Assembly: GCA_902584805.1 (NCBI GenBank)
Contig: CACIBE010000008.1
Coordinates: forward strand, 5,891-69,890
DNA from: an uncultured Alphaproteobacteria bacterium
GTDB taxonomy: Bacteria > Pseudomonadota > Alphaproteobacteria > HIMB59 > GCA-002718135
Direction: 5' to 3'
Length of the DNA stretch: 64,000 bases
How positions within the stretch are numbered: the first letter of the stretch is position 1; each line of letters begins with the position of its first letter. Positions 54,032 through 60,845 of this stretch are shown one piece after another. Position numbers and translations under genes: made by a program. Below the pieces are notes generated by a model. The model saw nothing but the letters and a program-made list of their open reading frames with translations, was not told where the DNA came from and ran no database searches.

Positions 54032-54826
54032 ATGGAAATAAATAAAATTACGAATTTATTGAATCTGGAGCATGTTAAGTTTTTAATATCTATCTTTAAA
54101 GAAAATAATATTGAAATTCGATTAGTAGGAGGTTGTATACGAGATGCTCTTCTTGAAAGAGAAATCAAAGATATTGATACAGCGACAACTTTGGAGCCTG
54201 AAGATGTTTTGTCATTACTAAAAGAGAACAATATTGAGTATGATGATTTTGCTATTCAATATGGATCTATAATTGCTTATCCTCATAATCGAAAAATACA
54301 AATTACAACTTTACGTGAAGATGTTAATCAAATGGGAAGACATACAAATGTAATTTACACCAACAGCTGGAAAAAAGATTCAGCCAGAAGAGATTTTACT
54401 TTCAATGCTTTATATGTGGGAAACAATAATAAACTCCATGATTATTACAATGGCCAATCAGATTTAAATGAAAGTAAAATTTGTTTTATTGGTGAAATAG
54501 AGGATAGAATAAAAGAAGATTACTTAAGAATCTATCGATACTTTAGGTTTAGAGGTTTATTTAATTTACCTAAAACATCTTTAAGTGATCAAAAGATTGT
54601 AGAAAAATATATTCACGAATCTTTGGCAGTGTTGACCAACGATGTAATAAGACAAGAAATATTAAAAATGTTTAATATGTCTTTTCCATTAAATTGTTTT
54701 TACATATCTCATCAAACGTTACAAAAATTCAAATGGGTTGAAATAGTGCAAGAGCATTTTATACGAACAAAATACGACCTTGGATTAAATAAATGTCTGA
54801 ATAAGATTGATAATTTAATAAATTAG
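54032..54826 (+). CDS. tRNA nucleotidyltransferase / poly(A) polymerase-family protein, short form
   Basis: 264 aa. Head-domain motifs LVGGCIRDALL, DIDTAT and RRDFTFNAL are present, but the protein is much shorter than the ~400-aa class II CCA-adding enzymes. Confidence 0.7.
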   Translation: MEINKITNLLNLEHVKFLISIFKENNIEIRLVGGCIRDALLEREIKDIDTATTLEPEDVLSLLKENNIEYDDFAIQYGSIIAYPHNRKIQITTLREDVNQMGRHTNVIYTNSWKKDSARRDFTFNALYVGNNNKLHDYYNGQSDLNESKICFIGEIEDRIKEDYLRIYRYFRFRGLFNLPKTSLSDQKIVEKYIHESLAVLTNDVIRQEILKMFNMSFPLNCFYISHQTLQKFKWVEIVQEHFIRTKYDLGLNKCLNKIDNLIN

Positions 54827-55236
54827 TTTTTTAGTTTACAATTTTCGCACAAACCAAATATTTCTAAATTATGTTTTTTATAATTGAAGTTATTTTTTTC
54901 TGCTTGTTTTGAAAAATAAGAAAATAAATTATTTCCAGTTAGCTCAGTAACACTATCACAGTTTTCACATATCAAAAAAGATGTAGAAGTTTTTGCATTA
55001 CATCCTTCATGTTTACAAGCAACGTAAGAATTTCTACTTTCTATTTTGTGAACTTTTCCAATTTCAATCAATTTATCGAGTGCCCTGTAAACTTGCAGAG
55101 GAGATTTTATTCCCATTTTTTGTATATCATAAAGAATTGTGTACGCCTTCATCGGTTCAGAAGAGTTTTCTAAAACTCCAAGAACTGTTTTTTGATTCTT
55201 AGTTAAATTATCCGATGCCAATCCCATATATCTCAA
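54823..55236 (-). CDS. zur: Fur-family transcriptional regulator, zinc uptake regulator-like
   Basis: 137 aa with a winged-helix N-terminal domain and two CxxC pairs (CENCDS, CENCK). It is the last gene of the znuC-znuB operon. Confidence 0.75.
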   Translation of the reverse strand: MRYMGLASDNLTKNQKTVLGVLENSSEPMKAYTILYDIQKMGIKSPLQVYRALDKLIEIGKVHKIESRNSYVACKHEGCNAKTSTSFLICENCDSVTELTGNNLFSYFSKQAEKNNFNYKKHNLEIFGLCENCKLKN

Positions 55237-55250
55237 TTACCAAATTGTTT

Positions 55251-56054
55251 TCATTTTTGCAACTTACCTCTCAACTCTAGTGGAATAAGAGAAATGATAA
55301 ATAATATTATCGCTATAACAATAATTGATGGTCCCGAAGAGGTATTCAATTCCAAAGAAGTAAATAAGCCAATTGTAACAGATAAAATACCAATTAATAT
55401 GGCTACAAATACCATTTGTTTTGGATTGTTAGTGATATTTCTCGATGCCGCTGCCGGTATTATTAGTAATCCTGTAATTAAAAGAGTCCCAATCATTTTT
55501 ATAGACAATGCAATAACTCCAGCTAGTAGTAGGGTAAAGATCATATTATATATGTTCGGTTTCATTCCTTCTGCTAAAGCTAGATCATAATTAACTGTAG
55601 CTGAAAATAATGATTTCCAAATAAAATATAAAATTCCTATAATTATAAAACCACCAATCCATACTAGAGCGATGTCTTCTACAGTTACTGCTAAGATATC
55701 ACCAAAAAGTAATCCCATAATATCAAAACGAATACTCGATAAAAAACCCATTAAAACCAAACCAATCGCAAGAGTAGAGTGAGCTAATAATCCAAGTAAT
55801 GAATCACCAGCCAATCTAGTCCTCTTTTGAAGATTGAGAAGAAGTAGAGCAATGACTGCCGATATTATAAACACAGAAAAGGCAATATTTAAACTGAAGG
55901 CATAGGCTAAAGTTACTCCTAGTAAGGCAGAGTGTGCTAAGGTATCACCAAAATAAGATAATCGTCTCCAAATTACTAAGCAACCTAGTGGCCCTGTAAT
56001 TATTGCAATACCGATACCTGCAACTAACGCTCTAGTAAAAAAATCATCAAACAT
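55251..56054 (-). CDS. znuB: zinc ABC transporter permease
   Basis: 267 aa, ABC-3 family permease (SYFGDTLAHSALLG). Confidence 0.9.
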   Translation of the reverse strand: MFDDFFTRALVAGIGIAIITGPLGCLVIWRRLSYFGDTLAHSALLGVTLAYAFSLNIAFSVFIISAVIALLLLNLQKRTRLAGDSLLGLLAHSTLAIGLVLMGFLSSIRFDIMGLLFGDILAVTVEDIALVWIGGFIIIGILYFIWKSLFSATVNYDLALAEGMKPNIYNMIFTLLLAGVIALSIKMIGTLLITGLLIIPAAASRNITNNPKQMVFVAILIGILSVTIGLFTSLELNTSSGPSIIVIAIILFIISLIPLELRGKLQK

Positions 56055-56797
56055 TAACTAGACACACTTCCGTCAGAATTATGTGTGTGATCATGATCGT
56101 GCTGATAATATGTCAACGTTTTTGATCTATGTTCACCAAATAATTCTATATAGGCTTTATCTTTTATAACTGTACTTGGTTTTCCTGAACAACAGATATG
56201 CCCATTTAAACAAACTACATGATCTGTAGCAGACATAACAAAATGCAAGTCATGGGAGACTAATAAAATTCCACAATTTAGGTTTGCAGAAATATTTTTG
56301 ATAATATTATAAAGATCAATTTCCCCATTAAAATCAACTCCTTGAACGGGTTCATCTAAGACTAGTAATTCTGGTTTTTTTGCGATAGCTCTTGCTAGAA
56401 GAACACGTTGAAATTCTCCACCAGATAGACCATGAATTTGTTCCTTGAAAAGTTTTTCTACTCCAGTTTGATTTAAAGATTCACTAACTTCATTATTGCT
56501 GAGATTATTGGTTAATCGCATGAAATCTACAACTCGTAATGGCATTGTCCAATCGATATTAATTTTCTGAGGAACATATGCGATTTTATCTGTGTACCTT
56601 TTCATTGAACCTTCATCAGGTTCAAGAATACTTAGCACCATTTTAGCTGTTGTTGTCTTTCCAGAACCATTAGGTCCTATTAGCGTAACTATTTGACCAC
56701 GCCTTACTTCAAGAGATACACCTTTTATCAACCATTTTGGAGACTTATAAACACCTGCGTTTTCCAAATTTACTAATAAATTATTTTTACTACTCAT
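56054..56797 (-). CDS. znuC: zinc ABC transporter ATP-binding protein
   Basis: 247 aa with Walker A GPNGSGKTT, LSGGEFQR and a His-rich C-terminal tail (HDHDHTH). Confidence 0.9.
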   Translation of the reverse strand: MSSKNNLLVNLENAGVYKSPKWLIKGVSLEVRRGQIVTLIGPNGSGKTTTAKMVLSILEPDEGSMKRYTDKIAYVPQKINIDWTMPLRVVDFMRLTNNLSNNEVSESLNQTGVEKLFKEQIHGLSGGEFQRVLLARAIAKKPELLVLDEPVQGVDFNGEIDLYNIIKNISANLNCGILLVSHDLHFVMSATDHVVCLNGHICCSGKPSTVIKDKAYIELFGEHRSKTLTYYQHDHDHTHNSDGSVSS

Positions 56798-56814: not shown

Positions 56815-56837
56815 AAAATGTAATATTATAACATTAC
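56815..56837. promoter_or_regulatory. Zur box in the znuC/znuA divergent promoter region
   Basis: AAAATGTAATATTATAACATTAC contains the 18-bp palindrome GTAATATTA|TAACATTAC (16/18 symmetric). It matches the proteobacterial Zur consensus GAAATGTTATANTATAACATTTC (quoted from memory) at about 19 of 22 defined positions. It lies 18 nt from the znuC ATG and 38 nt from the znuA ATG. Confidence 0.7.
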
Positions 56838-56874: not shown

Positions 56875-57885
56875 ATGAAACAAACGAATTTTTTTCTACA
56901 TATATTTAAGATTATTTTGTTTTCAGGAATTCTTGTTGCAACTGCATCTGCAAGAGCAGAGTTAAAGGTTGTTACTACAATTAAACCACTACATTCATTA
57001 ATTTCAAACGTTATGGATGGAATAGGTGAGCCTGGACTCATAATCGATGGAAGTATATCACCACACAGTTTTACAATGAAACCTTCTCATGCGAAAATGC
57101 TTGAAGAAGCAGATGTCATTTTTTGGATTGGAGAGGGTATTGAAACATCAATGGAAGAACCTCTAGACACAATTGCAAAAGATGCAGAAGTAATTGAATT
57201 TATGGAACTTGATTCAATTGCTAAATTAAAATTTAGAGAAGAATCAATTTTTGGTGACCATGACGATCACGACGACCACGATGACCACGATGATCATGAC
57301 GACCACGATGATCACGATGACCATGATGATCATGACGACCACGATGATCATGACGACCACGATGACCACGGCCATGCACACGGTGAATTTGATGCTCACA
57401 TTTGGCTAGATCCAATGAATGCTAAAGAAATGGTTCATGAAATAGCTCATGAGTTAGGTGATTTAGATCCTGCCAATAAAGAGAAATATGAAGCAAATGC
57501 TGAAGCAACAATTAAAGCTTTAGATCAGCTTATTAGTGATGTTGGTACAGATATTAATTCTGATGCAAAATTTGTTGTCTTCCATGACGCCTACCAATAC
57601 TTTGAAGAAAGATTTGGTGTAAGAGCTGCAGGAGCTTTAACATTGAATACTGATGTTTTACCTGGTGCGAAGCAAATAGCTGATATTCAGGATGTTATTA
57701 AGGATAAGGGAATAAAATGTATTTTCTCTGAACCTCAATTTAATCCAAAGATTATTAAAACAATAGCTGAGGACATGAATATCAAAACAGGAGTTTTTGA
57801 TCCTTTAGGTGCTAACATTGATGCTAGTAAGTCACTTTACTTTACGTTGATTAGTAATCTCGGGGACGAGCTTAAAGGCTGTTAA
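56875..57885 (+). CDS. znuA: periplasmic zinc-binding protein ZnuA with an expanded Asp/His-rich loop
   Basis: 336 aa with a signal peptide, the cluster A-I SBP fold (VVTTIKPLHSL, HIWLDP, HDAYQYF) and a DH(DDH)12 GHAHGE insert. Confidence 0.9.
   Translation: MKQTNFFLHIFKIILFSGILVATASARAELKVVTTIKPLHSLISNVMDGIGEPGLIIDGSISPHSFTMKPSHAKMLEEADVIFWIGEGIETSMEEPLDTIAKDAEVIEFMELDSIAKLKFREESIFGDHDDHDDHDDHDDHDDHDDHDDHDDHDDHDDHDDHDDHGHAHGEFDAHIWLDPMNAKEMVHEIAHELGDLDPANKEKYEANAEATIKALDQLISDVGTDINSDAKFVVFHDAYQYFEERFGVRAAGALTLNTDVLPGAKQIADIQDVIKDKGIKCIFSEPQFNPKIIKTIAEDMNIKTGVFDPLGANIDASKSLYFTLISNLGDELKGC
57256..57369 (+). repeat. in-frame 9-nt (DDH) tandem repeat, about 12.7 units, with an 18-nt higher-order unit
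   Basis: Codon-by-codon reading gives DH(DDH)12. The 18-mer gatgatcatgacgaccac occurs three times (57289, 57325, 57343), the last two in tandem. Confidence 0.95.
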
Positions 57886-57901
57886 ATTTTAATATTTAAA
57901 T

Positions 57902-57930
57902 AAATTCCACCTTGTATTAAGGTGGAATTT
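57902..57930 (+). terminator. perfect 12-bp hairpin after znuA (terminator or attenuator before the COG0523 operon)
   Basis: AAATTCCACCTT-gtatt-AAGGTGGAATTT followed by ATAAAA. The U-tract is short and partly inside the stem. Confidence 0.55.
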
Positions 57931-57956
57931 ATAAAACTAATTATAAGGAAATTGAT

Positions 57957-58928
57957 ATGGAAAATACTTCTCAGGTTCCAGTTACTGTTTTAACAGGGTT
58001 TCTTGGAGCTGGAAAAACAACTCTTTTAAATCGAATATTAACTGAACAGCATGGACGGAAATATGCCGTTATAGTTAATGAATTTGGTGAACAAGGTATC
58101 GACAATGATCTTGTTGTTGATGCTGATGAAGAAGTATTTGAAATGAACAACGGGTGCATTTGTTGCACTGTTAGAGGTGATTTAATTAGAATTCTAAGTG
58201 GCTTAATGAAACGTGCTGATAAGCTTGATGCAATTATTGTTGAGACAACTGGTTTAGCAGATCCAGCCCCAGTTGCTCAGACATTTTTTGTTGATCAAGA
58301 TGTTGCTGATAGAACAAAATTAGATGCAATTGTTACAGTTGCCGATGCTGTTCATCTAAGTTCTCAATTAGTCGATCATCATGAAGCAGAAGAACAAATT
58401 GCTTTTGCTGATGTAATTTTGTTAAATAAAGTTGAACTTGTTGGAGATAATGACATTGTAAAAGTTAATGATCGTATTAGAAAAATTAATCCTTTTGCAA
58501 AGATTATTAAAACAACACGTTGTGATGCACCTCTTGATGAAATCGTAGGCTTAAATGCATTTAGTCTAGATAGAGTATTAGATATTGAACCTGACTTTCT
58601 TGAATCAGAACATGATCATGAACATGATGATGATGTTACTAGTCTATCCTTTGTATCTGATACACCATTAGATATGGATAAGTTTCAAGATTGGTTTGGA
58701 AATTTACTCAGGACTAAGGGTCAGGATATTCTTCGATCAAAAGGCATTTTGAATTTTAAAGGTGAAGATGAGCGATATGTGTTTCAAGGAGTACACATGC
58801 TCATGGATGCTTCTCCAATGGGGCCATGGCCAAAAGGAAAAGATAGAAGTTCTCGAGTAGTTTTTATTGGTCGTGACCTTGATAATATGAACCTTAAGGA
58901 AGGCTTTGAAAATTGTAAATCAGCATGA
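57957..58928 (+). CDS. COG0523-family (CobW/ZigA/YeiR-like) metallochaperone GTPase
   Basis: 323 aa with Walker A GFLGAGKTT, the metal-binding motif GCICCT, a His/Asp/Glu-rich linker (ESEHDHEHDDD) and the CobW C-terminal domain. Confidence 0.85.
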   Translation: MENTSQVPVTVLTGFLGAGKTTLLNRILTEQHGRKYAVIVNEFGEQGIDNDLVVDADEEVFEMNNGCICCTVRGDLIRILSGLMKRADKLDAIIVETTGLADPAPVAQTFFVDQDVADRTKLDAIVTVADAVHLSSQLVDHHEAEEQIAFADVILLNKVELVGDNDIVKVNDRIRKINPFAKIIKTTRCDAPLDEIVGLNAFSLDRVLDIEPDFLESEHDHEHDDDVTSLSFVSDTPLDMDKFQDWFGNLLRTKGQDILRSKGILNFKGEDERYVFQGVHMLMDASPMGPWPKGKDRSSRVVFIGRDLDNMNLKEGFENCKSA

Positions 58929-59962
58929 ATGCTGATCTAGAAACACTTCAAAAATCAAATAAAACTGAACTTGAAAGAAGAGGTTCAATTTTTAATATTG
59001 GAGCCCCAGCTACAGAAGCGGTTACAATTCGTGATCAAATAGCGGTAGGATTTGGAGACGGTACTGTAAGATTTTTTCAATCTGGATCTGATCCTAAAAC
59101 TGTTAAAGCACATAAGGGTGTAGTGTTGAGTATGACAAATTATGAAGATCATGTGTTAACGGGAGGAGAAGATGGACGTTTTCTAAAAATATCATCTGAT
59201 GGAAATATTGATGAAATTTTTAATTTTGGTTCAAAGTGGGTTGACTGTGTAGCTTCCCACAAAGATACTAAAGTTTGTTCATCAGGAAAGACTGTTTATA
59301 TTTGGACAAAAAACAAAGATAAACCAAAAACTTTAGAGCATCAAAGTACTGTTGCTGGATTAGCATTTGATAATAAAGGCAAGCGTCTTGCGGTCTCAAG
59401 ATACGGTGGAGTAACAGTGTGGAAACTTAATAATAATAAATGGACAGCATCAAATTTTACATGGAAAGGATCGCATGGAACTGTAACGTTTAGCCCAGAT
59501 ACAAAATATATTGTAACTGCAATGCAAGAAAATCAAATTCATGGTTGGCGCATAAACGACAAAGCTGATTTAGCAATGAGAGGTTATCCATCAAAAATTA
59601 AAAGTTTTACTTGGGTTGGTGATACACCGTATTTGGTAACATCTGGATCCAGTGATGCAGTTTGCTGGCCATTTGATGGTAAAGAAGGACCAATGGGGAG
59701 AAAGCCAATTGTTGTTGCAAACGGTGGTAAAGAACTTGCAACATTTGTTAAAGCACTAAATGGAGAAAAAGCTGTTTTCACCGGTTTTACAGATGGGTCA
59801 GTTTTATTAGCAGAAATTGATGAAAGTAAAAAACCAATTATGATTAGAAGTTCAACAGGTGCAGAAGTTTCAACAATAGCGATATCTAGTGATAATTCAC
59901 AAATATTAATTGGGGATATGAAAGGTTCTATTCTTTTATCATCTTTATGGGCAGACAATTAA
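58925..59962 (+). CDS. WD40-like beta-propeller protein
   Basis: 345 aa with 7-8 blade-like repeats (GDGTVRFF, GEDGRFLKI, GKTVYIW, YGGVTVWKL, ENQIHGWRI, SSDAVCWPF, TDGSVLLAEI, DMKGSILLSSL). ATGA overlap with the COG0523 gene. Confidence 0.7.
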   Translation: MNADLETLQKSNKTELERRGSIFNIGAPATEAVTIRDQIAVGFGDGTVRFFQSGSDPKTVKAHKGVVLSMTNYEDHVLTGGEDGRFLKISSDGNIDEIFNFGSKWVDCVASHKDTKVCSSGKTVYIWTKNKDKPKTLEHQSTVAGLAFDNKGKRLAVSRYGGVTVWKLNNNKWTASNFTWKGSHGTVTFSPDTKYIVTAMQENQIHGWRINDKADLAMRGYPSKIKSFTWVGDTPYLVTSGSSDAVCWPFDGKEGPMGRKPIVVANGGKELATFVKALNGEKAVFTGFTDGSVLLAEIDESKKPIMIRSSTGAEVSTIAISSDNSQILIGDMKGSILLSSLWADN

Positions 59963-59972
59963 AGGAGAAAAT

Positions 59973-60227
59973 ATGTTTAATCGTAAAACTCAAAATGTTG
60001 AAAAAATAAGAAATCTTAAACATTTAATTTCTAAGAAATATAAATTACCAGAAAATACTATAATAAGTATTGCTGAGCTTAGTTGTCATGAGCCTGATTG
60101 TCCACCAATCGAAACTGTAATTACTGCAAGAAATGAAGACGGATCAATGAAAAATTGGCGAGTTGCAAAATCAATAGAAGAAATAGAGGAGTCAGATATT
60201 AATAATCTAACAAACCACACCCATTAG
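59973..60227 (+). CDS. hypothetical 84-aa protein with a CxxxxC motif
   Basis: AGGAG lies 7 nt upstream. Contains SCHEPDCPPIETVI and a C-terminal NHTH. I recognise no family. Confidence 0.5.
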   Translation: MFNRKTQNVEKIRNLKHLISKKYKLPENTIISIAELSCHEPDCPPIETVITARNEDGSMKNWRVAKSIEEIEESDINNLTNHTH

Positions 60228-60248
60228 ATTATTAAATTTAGAATAAAA

Positions 60249-60656
60249 ATGTCAAAAAAACAAAAAGAAATAATATTATCTGTTTGTCTCACATGTACCC
60301 TTAATAAAGCTCAAAATAATAATAAACTTGCAGGAGAAAAACTTGCACAAAAATTAATTAATAAATTTAAAAATACAAAAAATGTAACTTTAAGAGGTGT
60401 AAATTGCATGAGTAATTGTAAACGTTCATGTATTGTATCCTTTACCGCAGAAAATTGTTTTACCTATGTGTTTGGAGATATAGATCCTGAAAATTCTGCT
60501 TATATTGATTCAATAGAGGAACTGCTATTATCCTATAGCAAATCTGATGATGGTTTTTTGAGACGTAGACATAGACCTGAAATATATAGATCTAATATCG
60601 TTGGTAGATTTCCTCCAATAAATAGTAAGTCAGATATTATTATTAATTTAAAATAG
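60249..60656 (+). CDS. DUF1636-family putative metal-binding protein
   Basis: 135 aa. CLTC...VNCMSNCKRSC...RPEIYRSNIVGRFPP fits the DUF1636 pattern (thioredoxin-like ferredoxin fold, usually found beside cobW). Recognition is from memory. Confidence 0.65.
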   Translation: MSKKQKEIILSVCLTCTLNKAQNNNKLAGEKLAQKLINKFKNTKNVTLRGVNCMSNCKRSCIVSFTAENCFTYVFGDIDPENSAYIDSIEELLLSYSKSDDGFLRRRHRPEIYRSNIVGRFPPINSKSDIIINLK

Positions 60657-60723
60657 TAAAATTTTAAAAAAAATTAAATTATAATTATTTATTTCTGAAT
60701 TTTGTTTAATTTAGAATGTATTA

Positions 60724-60807
60724 TTAACAGCAATCTCCACCTTCACAAGCGCAACAACAGCTGCAGCTGCAACCACACTTTGGTGGGTTTGGATTTTGAT
60801 TTTTCAT
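60724..60807 (-). CDS. candidate 27-aa Cys-rich peptide (metallothionein-like), missing from the >=60-aa ORF track
   Basis: Manual translation gives MKNQNPNPPKCGCSCSCCCACEGGDCC followed by a double TAA TAA. There are 9 Cys in the last 17 residues. AGGT lies 6 nt upstream of the ATG. The ORF forms a GC-rich island within an AT-rich 189-nt spacer. Confidence 0.45.
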   Translation of the reverse strand: MKNQNPNPPKCGCSCSCCCACEGGDCC

Positions 60808-60845
60808 AATCATACCTATATATTTTATAATAATTTAAAATACAA

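What the first reader, a model, noticed from the sequence alone, without database searches (positions are those of the whole stretch)
57957..60656. COG0523 GTPase-WD40 propeller-84-aa CxxxxC protein-DUF1636 operon downstream of znuA
Four + strand genes are packed with an ATGA overlap and then 10-nt and 21-nt spacers. The first is a COG0523 GTPase with the GCICCT motif and a His/Asp/Glu-rich linker. The second is a 7-8-bladed WD40-like propeller translationally coupled to it. The third is an 84-aa protein with SCHEPDCPP and a C-terminal NHTH. The fourth is a DUF1636-type Cys protein. Linkage of COG0523 proteins to Zur regulons as zinc metallochaperones (YciC/ZigA/YeiR type) is established knowledge. 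DUF1636 is, as far as I recall, usually found beside cobW in cobalamin clusters, yet no cob genes occur in this window. To my knowledge SAR11-type genomes lack B12 synthesis. The only element between znuA and this block is a 12-bp hairpin with a weak U-tract, and I see no second Zur box. The block may therefore be expressed by read-through from the Zur-controlled znuA promoter. I know of no role for a WD40 partner or the 84-aa protein alongside a metallochaperone GTPase. The set could be a multi-component metal-delivery module whose client is bound by the propeller.
Basis: partly seen in the sequence, partly recalled or inferred. Interest (0 to 1): 0.62.

Follow-up and report, generated by a model that had tools for sequence, protein, structure and literature searches.

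The report
Zinc-starvation GTPase, propeller, small Cys protein
Downstream of the zinc-uptake gene znuA, this marine bacterium carries a zinc-starvation gene set whose widely conserved core is a metal-delivering GTPase, a WD40 propeller and a small, unnamed two-cysteine protein; the GTPase-propeller pairing was already published, but the small protein as a constant third partner appears to be new and gives a handle on how these GTPases work.

Summary

The COG0523 gene is not CobW. It is the YjiA/ZNG1-like, Zur-linked type that Haas et al. (2009) already reported next to WD40 and znuABC genes. That linkage is known, although its function is not.

What appears new is the 84-aa protein. It belongs to a family of about 800 clusters with no Pfam or NCBIfam model and no structural neighbour. 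Its core is an invariant ELxCxEPxCPPxETV loop. It travels with this COG0523 orthologue and its WD40 partner in SAR11, SAR116, Rhodobacterales and unrelated high-GC organisms. Of 53 loci recruited through distant family members, 45 have COG0523 within 1.5 kb, in permuted gene orders.

DUF1636 is an accessory limited to the alphaproteobacteria sampled. It usually lies divergent across a Zur-box spacer. Here it is a 473-bp indel present in 17 of 46 sister genomes.

Metatranscriptome contigs bridge every junction, including the hairpin. I propose a three-part zinc-insertion machine analogous to UreE/F/G. The component roles are inferred, not shown.

The parts
54823..55236 (-). zur (Fur-family zinc uptake repressor)
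   Evidence: Pfam FUR. Best NCBIfam match is Zur NF008646 at 78 bits, below the equivalog cut-off.
55251..56797 (-). znuB (55251-56054) and znuC (56054-56797), the zinc ABC permease and ATPase, divergent from znuA
   Evidence: Pfam ABC-3 3.8e-66 and ABC_tran 1.7e-26.
56817..56835 (.). Zur-box palindrome AATGTAATATTATAACATT in the znuC/znuA divergent spacer. It is the only such site in the window.
   Evidence: Zero mismatches to the pattern. No other site with one mismatch or fewer in 64 kb. The same motif lies in front of the cluster in other lineages.
56875..57885 (+). znuA with a long (HD)n loop; first gene of the proposed transcript
   Evidence: Pfam ZnuA 1.7e-65. NCBIfam ZnuA 250 bits against a cut-off of 268.
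57900..57932 (+). Conserved stem-loop between znuA and COG0523, with a 15-bp stem and no U-tract. Probably an attenuator or an RNA-stability or processing element, not a full terminator.
   Evidence: -18.1 kcal/mol, z = -4.3. The 12-nt arms are invariant in 16 distinct spacers from 48 loci while the loop varies. Unique in the window. Bridged by RNA contigs in 5 of 8 runs; one contig ends at 57931.
57957..58928 (+). COG0523 G3E GTPase of the YjiA/ZNG1-like type, matching Haas 'subfamily 5' by gene context. Walker A is at residue 17, GCICC at 66, ETTG at 96, the His/Asp linker at about 218-226, and RSK at 260.
   Evidence: It is 80-93% identical across alphaproteobacterial orders and 54-58% identical in distant high-GC loci. 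dN/dS is 0.04-0.06.
58925..59962 (+). Cytoplasmic 8-bladed WD40 propeller, translationally coupled to the GTPase by the ATGA overlap
   Evidence: About 60% identical across orders. Always directly downstream of COG0523.
59973..60227 (+). p84, a small helix-three-strand-helix protein with an invariant ELxCxEPxCPPxETV loop. It belongs to an unlabelled family linked to COG0523.
   Evidence: No Pfam or NCBIfam model. 805 representative clusters. Model pLDDT 81. No PDB fold match. Linkage shown. dN/dS is 0.11-0.29.
60235..60717 (.). Indel cassette carrying DUF1636, bounded by the direct repeat AATTTAGAAT at 60235-60244 and 60708-60717
   Evidence: Alignment with DUF1636-less alleles. RNA contig joints 60234>60708 and 60228>60702, each skipping 473 nt.
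60249..60656 (+). DUF1636 protein with a predicted thioredoxin-like ferredoxin fold and conserved CxxC...CxxxCxxxC cysteines. It is an accessory, strain-variable member.
   Evidence: PF07845 at 91.7 bits. PDB 9jn8 match at E = 8e-11. Present in 17 of 46 own-clade loci, 21 of 34 other alphaproteobacterial loci and 0 of 80 distant loci.
60724..60807 (-). Uncalled 27-aa Cys-rich ORF, MKNQNPNPPKCGCSCSCCCACEGGDCC (10 Cys), metallothionein-like and convergent with the block. Its association is restricted to this clade.
   Evidence: dN is 0.015-0.045 against dS 0.37-1.29. Absent from the 15-billion-protein collection.

Best explanation
The block is this SAR11-type lineage's version of a widely conserved zinc-limitation gene set.

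The constant core has three genes:
1. A YjiA/ZNG1-like COG0523 GTPase that binds metal at its GCICC motif.
2. An 8-bladed cytoplasmic WD40 propeller, made in step with the GTPase through the ATGA overlap.
3. A protein of about 85 aa whose beta1-beta2 loop carries two invariant cysteines (ELxCxEPxCPPxETV).

DUF1636, a thioredoxin-like five-Cys protein, is an optional add-on seen only in the alphaproteobacteria sampled.

Proposed working:
- When zinc is scarce, Zur leaves its box at 56817-56835.
- Transcription from the znuA promoter runs through a conserved stem-loop (57900-57932) into the block. The stem-loop modulates transcription but does not stop it.
- The GTP-bound GTPase holds Zn at CxCC.
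- The small protein acts as a Cys2 co-chaperone that hands metal to the GTPase, takes it from the GTPase, or completes its coordination.
- The propeller is the docking platform that brings in the client or clients, or holds the complex together.
- GTP hydrolysis, with RSK as the arginine finger, releases the metal.

This division of labour parallels that of the sister G3E systems UreE/UreF-D/UreG and HypA/HypB.

Shown here: the gene content, the conserved linkage, the Zur boxes, purifying selection, and RNA spanning the junctions. Inferred: physical complex formation, zinc as the cargo, and the role of each partner.
For: Family and motifs.

The COG0523-WD40-p84 triad is contiguous and co-oriented in nearly every locus of the 80 that reaches far enough, across the window's own clade, SAR116, Pelagibacteraceae and Rhodobacteraceae. 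The exceptions are two Rhodobacterales loci, L054 and L057. The triad also occurs in 2-6 Mb genomes.

An independent set was seeded only with distant p84 members. There, 49 of 53 loci of at least 5 kb have COG0523, and 45 have it within 1.5 kb. It is nearly always the 370-396-bit orthologue together with WD40. Gene order is permuted, and GC ranges from 0.37 to 0.69.

Zur-box palindromes lie directly upstream of the cluster where it is not behind znuA. A Zur-like gene heads the operon there. The neighbourhoods are zinc islands with znuABC, ZrgABCD-like genes and S18/L33 paralogues.

Haas 2009 predicted Zur-controlled znuCBA-COG0523-5-WD40 operons.

Translational coupling is seen here and as 4-17-nt overlaps elsewhere. 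dN/dS is 0.04-0.30.

RNA contigs bridge znuA to COG0523 in 5 of 8 metatranscriptomes. Single contigs run COG0523>WD40>p84 and WD40>p84>DUF1636.

The invariant R260-x-K262 matches the arginine-finger motif described in PMC13001444.
Against: - No experiment or complex prediction shows that the three proteins touch. The only apparent fusion, P0256 (WD40 C-terminus plus p84), is a single cluster and could be a sequencing read-through.
- p84 has no structural similarity to UreE or HypA, or to anything else in the PDB, so the co-chaperone role is analogy only. Two cysteines cannot make a full zinc site alone.
- p84 is missing or decayed beside WD40 in some Rhodobacterales loci (L054, L057, L089), so it is not strictly indispensable.
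- The metal is inferred from regulation. NicO and HoxN neighbours in some genomes leave cobalt or nickel open.
- The window has no Zur box of its own in front of COG0523, and contig depth is higher on COG0523 than on the znuA 3' end. That could mean an internal promoter. It could also reflect more strains mapping onto the more conserved gene.
- The contigs are unstranded and may include carried-over DNA.
Confidence: 0.6

Rival explanations
1. The partners are regulators or clients rather than a co-chaperone and an adaptor. For example, the propeller could act as a GAP, GEF or GDI for the GTPase. Alternatively, p84 could itself be the protein that gets metalated, or a zinc-sparing substitute for a zinc-requiring protein.
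For: The linkage data show coupling but say nothing about direction. COG0523 clients are often encoded next to the chaperone, as with CobW-CobN and Nha3-nitrile hydratase (established knowledge; review text). The GTPase is far more conserved than the propeller, as expected if the propeller adapts to lineage-specific partners.
Against: COG0523 proteins carry their own arginine finger ('self-gapping', PMC13001444), and R260-x-K262 is invariant here, which reduces the need for a GAP. p84 has no enzyme-like fold and no similarity to known zinc-dependent proteins or their paralogues.
Confidence: 0.17
2. The module is induced by zinc limitation but handles another metal, such as cobalt, iron or nickel. 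It would load cambialistic enzymes with a substitute when zinc is short.
For: Haas's supplement lists HoxN/NixA-type transporters beside subfamily-5 genes. A distant p84 member is co-oriented with NicO (the ORFs overlap) and lies near a LarC-like gene. In some Rhodobacterales, DUF1636 heads a FecCD/Peripla_BP_2 metal-chelate importer operon. Related DUF1636 and CobW proteins serve cobalt in B12 clusters. Cupriavidus CobW2 and CobW3 link zinc and cobalt (title and abstract).
Against: The dominant neighbours are znuABC, zur, ZrgABCD-like genes and Zur boxes. The characterised relatives YjiA and ZNG1 handle zinc.
Confidence: 0.12
3. Expression of the block in this genome comes mainly from its own promoter between the hairpin and COG0523. 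The hairpin would terminate znuA, so the block need not be zinc-regulated here.
For: There is no Zur box in 57886-57956. Contig depth is higher on COG0523 than on the znuA 3' end in most runs, and one contig ends at 57931. The stem is strong and conserved.
Against: The consensus scan found no promoter-like site in the spacer. The hairpin has no U-tract. Contigs bridge it in 5 of 8 runs. Every other lineage places the cluster under a Zur box. The depth difference is confounded because more strains map onto the more conserved gene.
Confidence: 0.25
4. It is a CobW-DUF1636 cobalt-insertion remnant of a cobalamin pathway.
For: DUF1636 heads the cobalamin operon behind a B12 riboswitch in Phaeobacter. 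Pfam names the domains cobW and CobW_C.
Against: CobW equivalog TIGR02475 scores 202 bits against a cut-off of 332. There is no cobalamin riboswitch in the window or in 7 related loci. Zur boxes are present instead. The GTPase orthologue group travels with WD40 and znu genes, not cobN. DUF1636 is dispensable in 29 of 46 sister genomes.
Confidence: 0.03

Closest known systems
Haas et al. 2009 COG0523 'subfamily 5' (Zur-box operons znuCBA-COG0523-5-WD40(-sapB) in Bradyrhizobium, Nitrobacter and Rhodopseudomonas)
   Same: The same gene context: a COG0523 gene followed by a WD40 gene, next to znuABC and behind a Zur box.
   Different: That work mentions neither the small CxxxxC protein nor DUF1636. 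No sapB or COG1402 gene is present here. Placement of the window's protein in that clade by phylogeny was not tested. The function of the WD40 partner has not been addressed since, as far as the library shows.
Eukaryotic ZNG1 (CBWD), the zinc chaperone of methionine aminopeptidase 1
   Same: Both are COG0523 GTPases with CxCC that are induced by zinc limitation. Haas places the eukaryotic proteins in the same subfamily 5. The review calls YjiA the closest bacterial homologue of ZNG1, and YjiA is the window protein's best PDB match.
   Different: ZNG1 docks to its client through an N-terminal CPxLxP motif that binds the METAP1 zinc finger. The window protein starts MENTSQVPVTVL and has no such motif. 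A separate propeller and a small protein may supply the docking function instead (inference).
E. coli YjiA (PDB 1nij, 4ixm, 4ixn)
   Same: Best sequence match among solved structures, E = 2e-59 over the full length. Also the best NCBIfam model, PRK11537.
   Different: The score of 243.6 bits is below the equivalog cut-off of 361. As far as I know, yjiA has no WD40 or p84 neighbour and is not in a znu cluster.
UreE/UreF-UreD/UreG and HypA/HypB nickel-insertion machines (sister G3E GTPases)
   Same: The proposed architecture: a G3E GTPase plus a small metal-binding co-chaperone plus a scaffold, encoded together.
   Different: This is analogy only. p84 has no fold similarity to UreE or HypA, the propeller is unrelated to UreF or UreD, and COG0523 proteins have a C-terminal domain that UreG and HypB lack.
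CobW with DUF1636 in cobalamin clusters
   Same: A COG0523 GTPase encoded near a DUF1636 protein.
   Different: The GTPase subfamily differs (CobW equivalog not met). The control is a Zur box, not a B12 riboswitch. DUF1636 here is optional.
AztD, the periplasmic beta-propeller zinc chaperone
   Same: A beta-propeller in a Zur-linked zinc system, often near CobW-family genes.
   Different: AztD is periplasmic and binds zinc itself. The window's propeller has no signal peptide by inspection, is a canonical WD40, and does not have AztD among its top 50 structural matches.

Membership tests
COG0523 (G3E GTPase metallochaperones) | Walker A P-loop and G-domain (Pfam cobW) | tested here: met
   PF02492 at 1.2e-58. 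GAGKTT at residue 17 and ETTG at 96. The G4 motif reads NKVE, where relatives have NKxD.
COG0523 (G3E GTPase metallochaperones) | CxCC metal-binding motif | tested here: met
   GCICC at residues 66-70. C67, C69 and C70 are invariant in 41 distant orthologues.
COG0523 (G3E GTPase metallochaperones) | C-terminal CobW_C domain with the RxK arginine-finger motif | tested here: met
   PF07683 at 1.4e-26. RSK at residue 260, with R260 and K262 invariant. The motif is as described in PMC13001444.
CobW proper (cobalamin cobalt chaperone) | Reaches the TIGR02475 equivalog score | tested here: not met
   202.4 bits against a cut-off of 332.1.
CobW proper (cobalamin cobalt chaperone) | Located in a cob cluster and/or behind a B12 riboswitch | tested here: not met
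   No cobalamin riboswitch in the window or in 7 related loci. The neighbours are znu, zur and WD40 genes.
ZigA / YeiR / YjiA equivalogs | Reaches the NCBIfam equivalog score | tested here: not met
   ZigA NF038288 scores 197 against 600. PRK11537 (YjiA-type) scores 243.6 against 361 and is the closest model, though still below its cut-off.
Haas subfamily 5 of COG0523 | Gene context: WD40 neighbour, znuABC neighbour, Zur site | tested here: met
   compared.
Haas subfamily 5 of COG0523 | Phylogenetic placement with the named members (bll7768, RPA0861, ZNG1) | not tested
ZNG1 | N-terminal CPxLxP client-docking motif | tested here: not met
   The N-terminus reads MENTSQVPVTVLTG. The review states that the motif is absent from bacterial homologues.
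WD40 beta-propeller | WD40 repeats forming a closed propeller | tested here: met
   PF00400 at 45.3 bits against 27. The AF2 model has pLDDT 88 and 32 strands. TM is 0.73-0.80 to 8-bladed WD40 structures.
AztD-type propeller zinc chaperone | Periplasmic location and AztD-like fold or sequence | tested here: not met
   No signal peptide by inspection of the N-terminus. AztD is absent from the sequence hits and from the top 50 fold hits.
DUF1636 (PF07845) | Reaches the Pfam gathering score | tested here: met
   91.7 bits against 31.6. Homologous to PDB 9jn8 at E = 8e-11.
Thioredoxin-like [2Fe-2S] ferredoxin | Binds an Fe-S cluster through four cysteines | not testable with these tools
   The cysteines CxxC...CxxxCxxxC are conserved. 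The fold assignment comes from PMC4520260. NuoE-family similarity is only marginal, E = 0.0086.
Zur regulon | Zur operator upstream of the transcription unit | tested here: met
   A perfect box at 56817-56835 lies upstream of znuA. There is none directly before COG0523 in the window. Boxes lie directly before the cluster in Pelagibacteraceae, SAR116 and other lineages.
Zur regulon | Zinc-responsive expression | not testable with these tools
   Only in-situ metatranscriptome contigs are available.
UreE/HypA-type co-chaperone (for p84) | Homology or fold similarity | tested here: not met
   No PDB match at E of 1e-3 or better. No Pfam or NCBIfam hit. The functional analogy remains possible.
Metallothionein (for the 27-aa minus-strand ORF) | Short, very Cys-rich, no aromatic residues, conserved as a protein | tested here: met
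   10 Cys in 27 aa and no aromatic residues. Conserved with dN far below dS. Metal binding is untested and no family model matched.

The most novel reading that the evidence does not exclude
The 84-aa protein defines a previously unrecognised, widespread family. It would be the obligate Cys2 co-chaperone of the YjiA/ZNG1-like branch of COG0523 GTPases. Together with the WD40 propeller it would form a three-part zinc-insertion machine comparable to UreEFG. The propeller's binding partners would then reveal the long-sought bacterial clients.
Probability: 0.35. Interest if true: 0.78.

Novelty: new variant of a known kind. Interest (0 to 1): 0.58.

Why it matters
COG0523 GTPases occur in all kingdoms and matter for surviving zinc starvation. 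Even so, reviews up to 2024-2026 say that bacterial clients and mechanism remain largely unknown.

Two constant, co-inherited partners give concrete starting points for pull-downs, complex prediction and genetics. One of them was overlooked because it is short and has no family model. Orthologous triads exist in tractable Rhodobacterales-type genomes.

For ocean biology, the gene set is strongly conserved and expressed in situ in one of the most abundant, most streamlined bacterial lineages. That suggests intracellular zinc allocation is under selection in the zinc-poor surface ocean. The strain-variable DUF1636 cassette and the uncalled metallothionein-like gene add to the flexible metal toolkit of these populations.

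Tried and rejected
- **CobW/B12 reading:** rejected on the equivalog score, the absence of riboswitches and the gene context.
- **AztD-like propeller:** rejected.
- **Pfam, NCBIfam, PDB sequence and PDB fold searches for p84:** nothing significant. The weak top fold hits (RadD, dsRBD-like domains, TM below 0.41) are not evidence.
- **P0233:** the best-scoring hit of the p84 profile is a 6102-aa Thr/Asp/Ser-rich repeat protein without the Cys motif. It is a compositional false positive.
- **P0255 (COG0523 fragment plus p84) and P0256 (WD40 plus p84):** single clusters, possibly frameshifts or read-throughs, so not used as evidence of fusion.
- **Hairpin as a dispersed repeat:** rejected, because it is unique in the window.
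- **Hairpin as a canonical terminator:** not called by the scan and has no U-tract.
- **PDB 9jn8 'ORF378':** no paper found, and the ORF378 in the literature is an unrelated tyrosinase caddie protein.
- **The 2021 COG0523 review (PMC8360895):** not held in the library.
- **Deep alignment of the distant WD40 partners:** failed my full-length filter because the hits split into repeats.
- **Contig depth as a measure of expression:** judged unreliable.

Full report
**1.

- COG0523, 57957-58928
- WD40, 58925-59962
- an 84-aa ORF (p84), 59973-60227
- DUF1636, 60249-60656

The ATGA overlap was read directly. The 10- and 21-nt spacers follow from the coordinates.

Pfam gives cobW plus CobW_C, WD40 families and DUF1636, and nothing for the 84-aa protein. 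NCBIfam also has no model for the WD40 protein or p84.

Upstream are zur, znuB and znuC on the minus strand and znuA on the plus strand. A pirin gene lies downstream.

A pattern search finds one perfect Zur-box palindrome in the whole window, at 56817-56835 in the znuC/znuA spacer. There is none before COG0523.

The znuA-COG0523 spacer folds into a 15-bp stem-loop (57900-57932, -18.1 kcal/mol, z = -4.3). Its tail is A-rich rather than U-rich.

**2. Where the window comes from**

The window matches single-cell genomes labelled 'uncultured Alphaproteobacteria'. A member of the same 90% cluster is labelled Pelagibacteraceae by NCBI. The exact p84 sequence occurs on 935 contigs, the longest 1.26 Mb. 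With about 30% GC, this is a streamlined SAR11-type genome. Loci explicitly labelled Pelagibacteraceae are only about 59% identical in the propeller.

**3. What was already known**

Haas et al. 2009 state that prokaryotic COG0523 'subfamily 5', which also holds most eukaryotic members, clusters with WD40-repeat genes and znuABC. Their supplement lists Zur-box operons 'znuCBA-COG0523-5-WD40(-sapB)' in Bradyrhizobium, Nitrobacter and Rhodopseudomonas.

So the GTPase-propeller-znu-Zur linkage is published as a prediction. Later work does not return to the propeller:
- The held part of a 2024 review and a 2026 preprint never mention it, and both stress that bacterial clients are mostly unknown.
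- Searches for COG0523 or CobW together with WD40 return only Haas 2009, the AztD paper and unrelated papers.
- Nothing links COG0523 with SAR11.

**4. Which COG0523 this is**

It has the following features:
- the P-loop
- GCICC
- ETTG
- a His/Asp linker, with H221, H223 and D224 invariant
- the RxK motif

It fails the CobW equivalog (202 against 332), the ZigA equivalog (197 against 600) and the YjiA-type equivalog (244 against 361). The YjiA-type model is the closest. YjiA is also the only solved relative, at E = 2e-59.

It is strikingly conserved. Identity is 80-93% over the full length between SAR11-type, SAR116 and Rhodobacterales genomes, and 54-58% in unrelated high-GC organisms. dN/dS is about 0.05.

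**5. Neighbourhood test in genomes**

A scan of species-representative genomes with a propeller alignment found 489 loci, and I analysed the best 80. COG0523, WD40 and p84 are contiguous and co-oriented in nearly all loci that extend far enough. In two Rhodobacterales loci (L054, L057) p84 is not adjacent. Three larger genomes show the pattern zur-like, then cobW (323 aa), then WD40. An 85-86-aa unlabelled ORF follows in two of the three.

DUF1636 behaves differently:
- In Pelagibacteraceae and most other lineages it is divergent, immediately upstream of the cluster.
- In some loci it heads a FecCD/Peripla_BP_2/ABC_tran operon.
- In the window's clade it is downstream.

**6. DUF1636 is optional here**

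Only 17 of 46 own-clade species representatives carry it. In the others, p84 is followed directly by the next gene. The difference is a clean 473-bp indel bounded by the direct repeat AATTTAGAAT. Its distribution is patchy with respect to the two znuBC haplotypes, which suggests repeated loss or exchange. Both alleles appear in metatranscriptome contigs. A DUF1636 profile finds it in 21 of 34 other alphaproteobacterial loci and in none of 80 distant loci.

**7. Zinc control**

Where the cluster is not directly behind znuA, Zur-box palindromes with at most 1-2 mismatches lie just upstream of it:
- between DUF1636 and COG0523 in Pelagibacteraceae
- as a pair between DUF1636 and a zur-like gene in several lineages
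- between znuA and the zur-like gene in SAR116

That upstream gene scores best as Zur.

No cobalamin riboswitch occurs in the window or in seven related loci. By contrast, the Phaeobacter DUF1636 that heads the cobalamin operon does sit behind one. The DUF1636 here is therefore Zur-linked. Because DUF1636 accompanies two different COG0523 subfamilies, its role is more likely directed at the GTPase or the metal than at a particular client. That is an inference.

**8. The 84-aa protein**

- The word-based search found only 112 relatives.
- A full HMMER profile search found 805 representative clusters at E of 1e-3 or better, and 121 at 1e-10 or better.
- Twenty-six diverse members have no Pfam match of their own. 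The only hits come from fused or chimeric neighbour fragments.
- The invariant positions are E35, L36, C38, C43, P44, P45, E47 and T48. The His after the first Cys and the C-terminal HxH occur only in the marine clades.
- The AlphaFold model (pLDDT 81) is helix, three strands, helix, with the Cys loop between strands 1 and 2.
- It has no significant PDB neighbour.

**9. Independent test of the linkage**

Context look-ups of distant members gave zinc-island neighbourhoods:
- One is divergent from a cobW gene and followed by NicO. That island also holds S18 and L33 paralogues and a second cobW-WD40 pair.
- Another sits with DUF1830, SufE and cobW, downstream of Fur-family and ABC-3 genes.

I then scanned metagenome contigs with an alignment of distant members only. 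Of the 53 loci of at least 5 kb:
- 49 carry COG0523.
- 45 carry it within 1.5 kb of the p84-like ORF.
- It is nearly always the orthologue scoring 370-396 bits against the window's protein, together with a WD40 gene.

The order varies: p84>COG0523>WD40, COG0523>WD40>p84, or convergent. GC spans 0.37-0.69. Linkage that survives rearrangement across such different genomes is the strongest evidence here for functional coupling.

**10. The propeller**

The model (pLDDT 88) has 32 strands, which is eight blades. It superposes best on 8-bladed WD40 adaptors and scaffolds: Tako8, ODA16, Rsa4 and TBLR1, at TM 0.73-0.80. The periplasmic zinc chaperone AztD is not among the matches, and the protein has no signal peptide. 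The propeller diverges much faster than the GTPase.

**11. Expression**

Eight marine metatranscriptomes were examined as assembled contigs:
- In five, a contig bridges znuA, the hairpin and COG0523 (for example 57414-58726).
- One contig ends at 57931.
- Single contigs run 58782-60243 (COG0523 end, WD40, p84) and 59088-60449 (WD40, p84, DUF1636).

The hairpin arms are invariant in 16 distinct spacers while the loop varies, and the element is unique in the window.

I read it as a conserved modulator, either a partial stop or an RNA-stability or processing site, within a znuA-initiated transcript. The limits are that the contigs are unstranded, may contain DNA, and give poor depth estimates. 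An internal promoter is not excluded.

**12. Synthesis**

Firmly supported:
- a Zur-regulon zinc-limitation module
- a conserved core of COG0523, WD40 and p84
- DUF1636 as a lineage-restricted, strain-variable accessory

Inferred: a division of labour like the sister G3E systems, with p84 as a Cys2 co-chaperone, the propeller as a docking platform, and GTP hydrolysis as the release step. The alternatives are listed with their tests under rival explanations. They are that the partners are regulators or clients, that another metal is the cargo, and that the block has its own promoter.

**13. Verdict**

This is a new variant of a known kind. The system type and the WD40 link are published. The new points are the constant small partner, the Zur-linked optional DUF1636 cassette and the conserved stem-loop.

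Noticed in passing
window 60724-60807 (minus strand; alternative upstream ATG at 60813): An uncalled 27-aa ORF, MKNQNPNPPKCGCSCSCCCACEGGDCC (10 Cys, no aromatic residues), looks like a tiny metallothionein. It lies between the block and the pirin gene. It is conserved as a protein across the clade, including loci where the propeller is only 63% identical, with dN far below dS. It is absent from the 15-billion-protein collection and from NCBIfam. It was not found next to the cluster in other lineages.
   Followed up: partly
window 57230-57420 (inside znuA): The His/Asp (HD)n loop of ZnuA varies in length between strains. The stop-to-stop segments holding znuA range from about 1.0 to 1.6 kb in sister loci. 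Metatranscriptome contigs show insertions, back-joints and very high word depth in this stretch.
   Followed up: no
L066 3400-6480, and the equivalent stretch in other Pelagibacteraceae loci: Between znuA/znuCB-zur and the DUF1636/COG0523 block, Pelagibacteraceae carry a second putative zinc importer. It comprises a His-rich periplasmic protein, an ABC ATPase, an FtsX-type permease and a 154-aa protein, which resembles ZrgABCD. Together these form a larger zinc island. NCBIfam matched only the permease, weakly.
   Followed up: partly
L061 9314-9499 and L076 7430-7618: A conserved 61-62-aa Cys-rich ORF (MKKPKSPCIDVCNFSG..GWC.GCGRTR.ECQRWKKMKPYE) follows p84 in two lineages. It has no NCBIfam match. 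From memory it resembles the DUF1289 type.
   Followed up: no
L057 9032-12355 and L054 (Rhodobacterales): p84 is not adjacent to WD40 in these loci. In L057, a degenerate p84-like remnant lacking the CxxxxC motif lies about 3 kb downstream, after what looks like inserted DNA.
   Followed up: partly
L140, L164, L150, L146 and other distant loci (COG0523 linker): Many distant orthologues of the GTPase carry a large insertion beginning EPEYPFEW(S/G)G at the linker position. The window's protein has only the short His/Asp stretch there.
   Followed up: no
L103, L105, L107, L112, L113, L118, L120, L121 and others: In one widespread arrangement, a second, more distant COG0523 paralogue (100-122 bits) directly follows p84. 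The order is zur, COG0523, WD40, p84, COG0523-2.
   Followed up: no
window 58425-58436 (COG0523 residues 157-160): The G4 guanine-specificity motif reads NKVE in this clade, whereas relatives have NKxD (NKVD, NKID or NKTD).
   Followed up: no
PDB 9jn8 (external): A DUF1636 homologue has been solved, deposited as 'ORF378' (133 aa, GC-rich source). No paper was found. The ORF378 in the literature is an unrelated tyrosinase caddie protein. This structure could settle whether DUF1636 binds Fe-S or another metal.
   Followed up: partly
window 60199-60235: A perfect 12-nt AT-only inverted repeat (TTAATAATCTAA / TTAGATTATTAA) straddles the p84 stop codon, just before the left boundary of the DUF1636 indel.
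   Followed up: no
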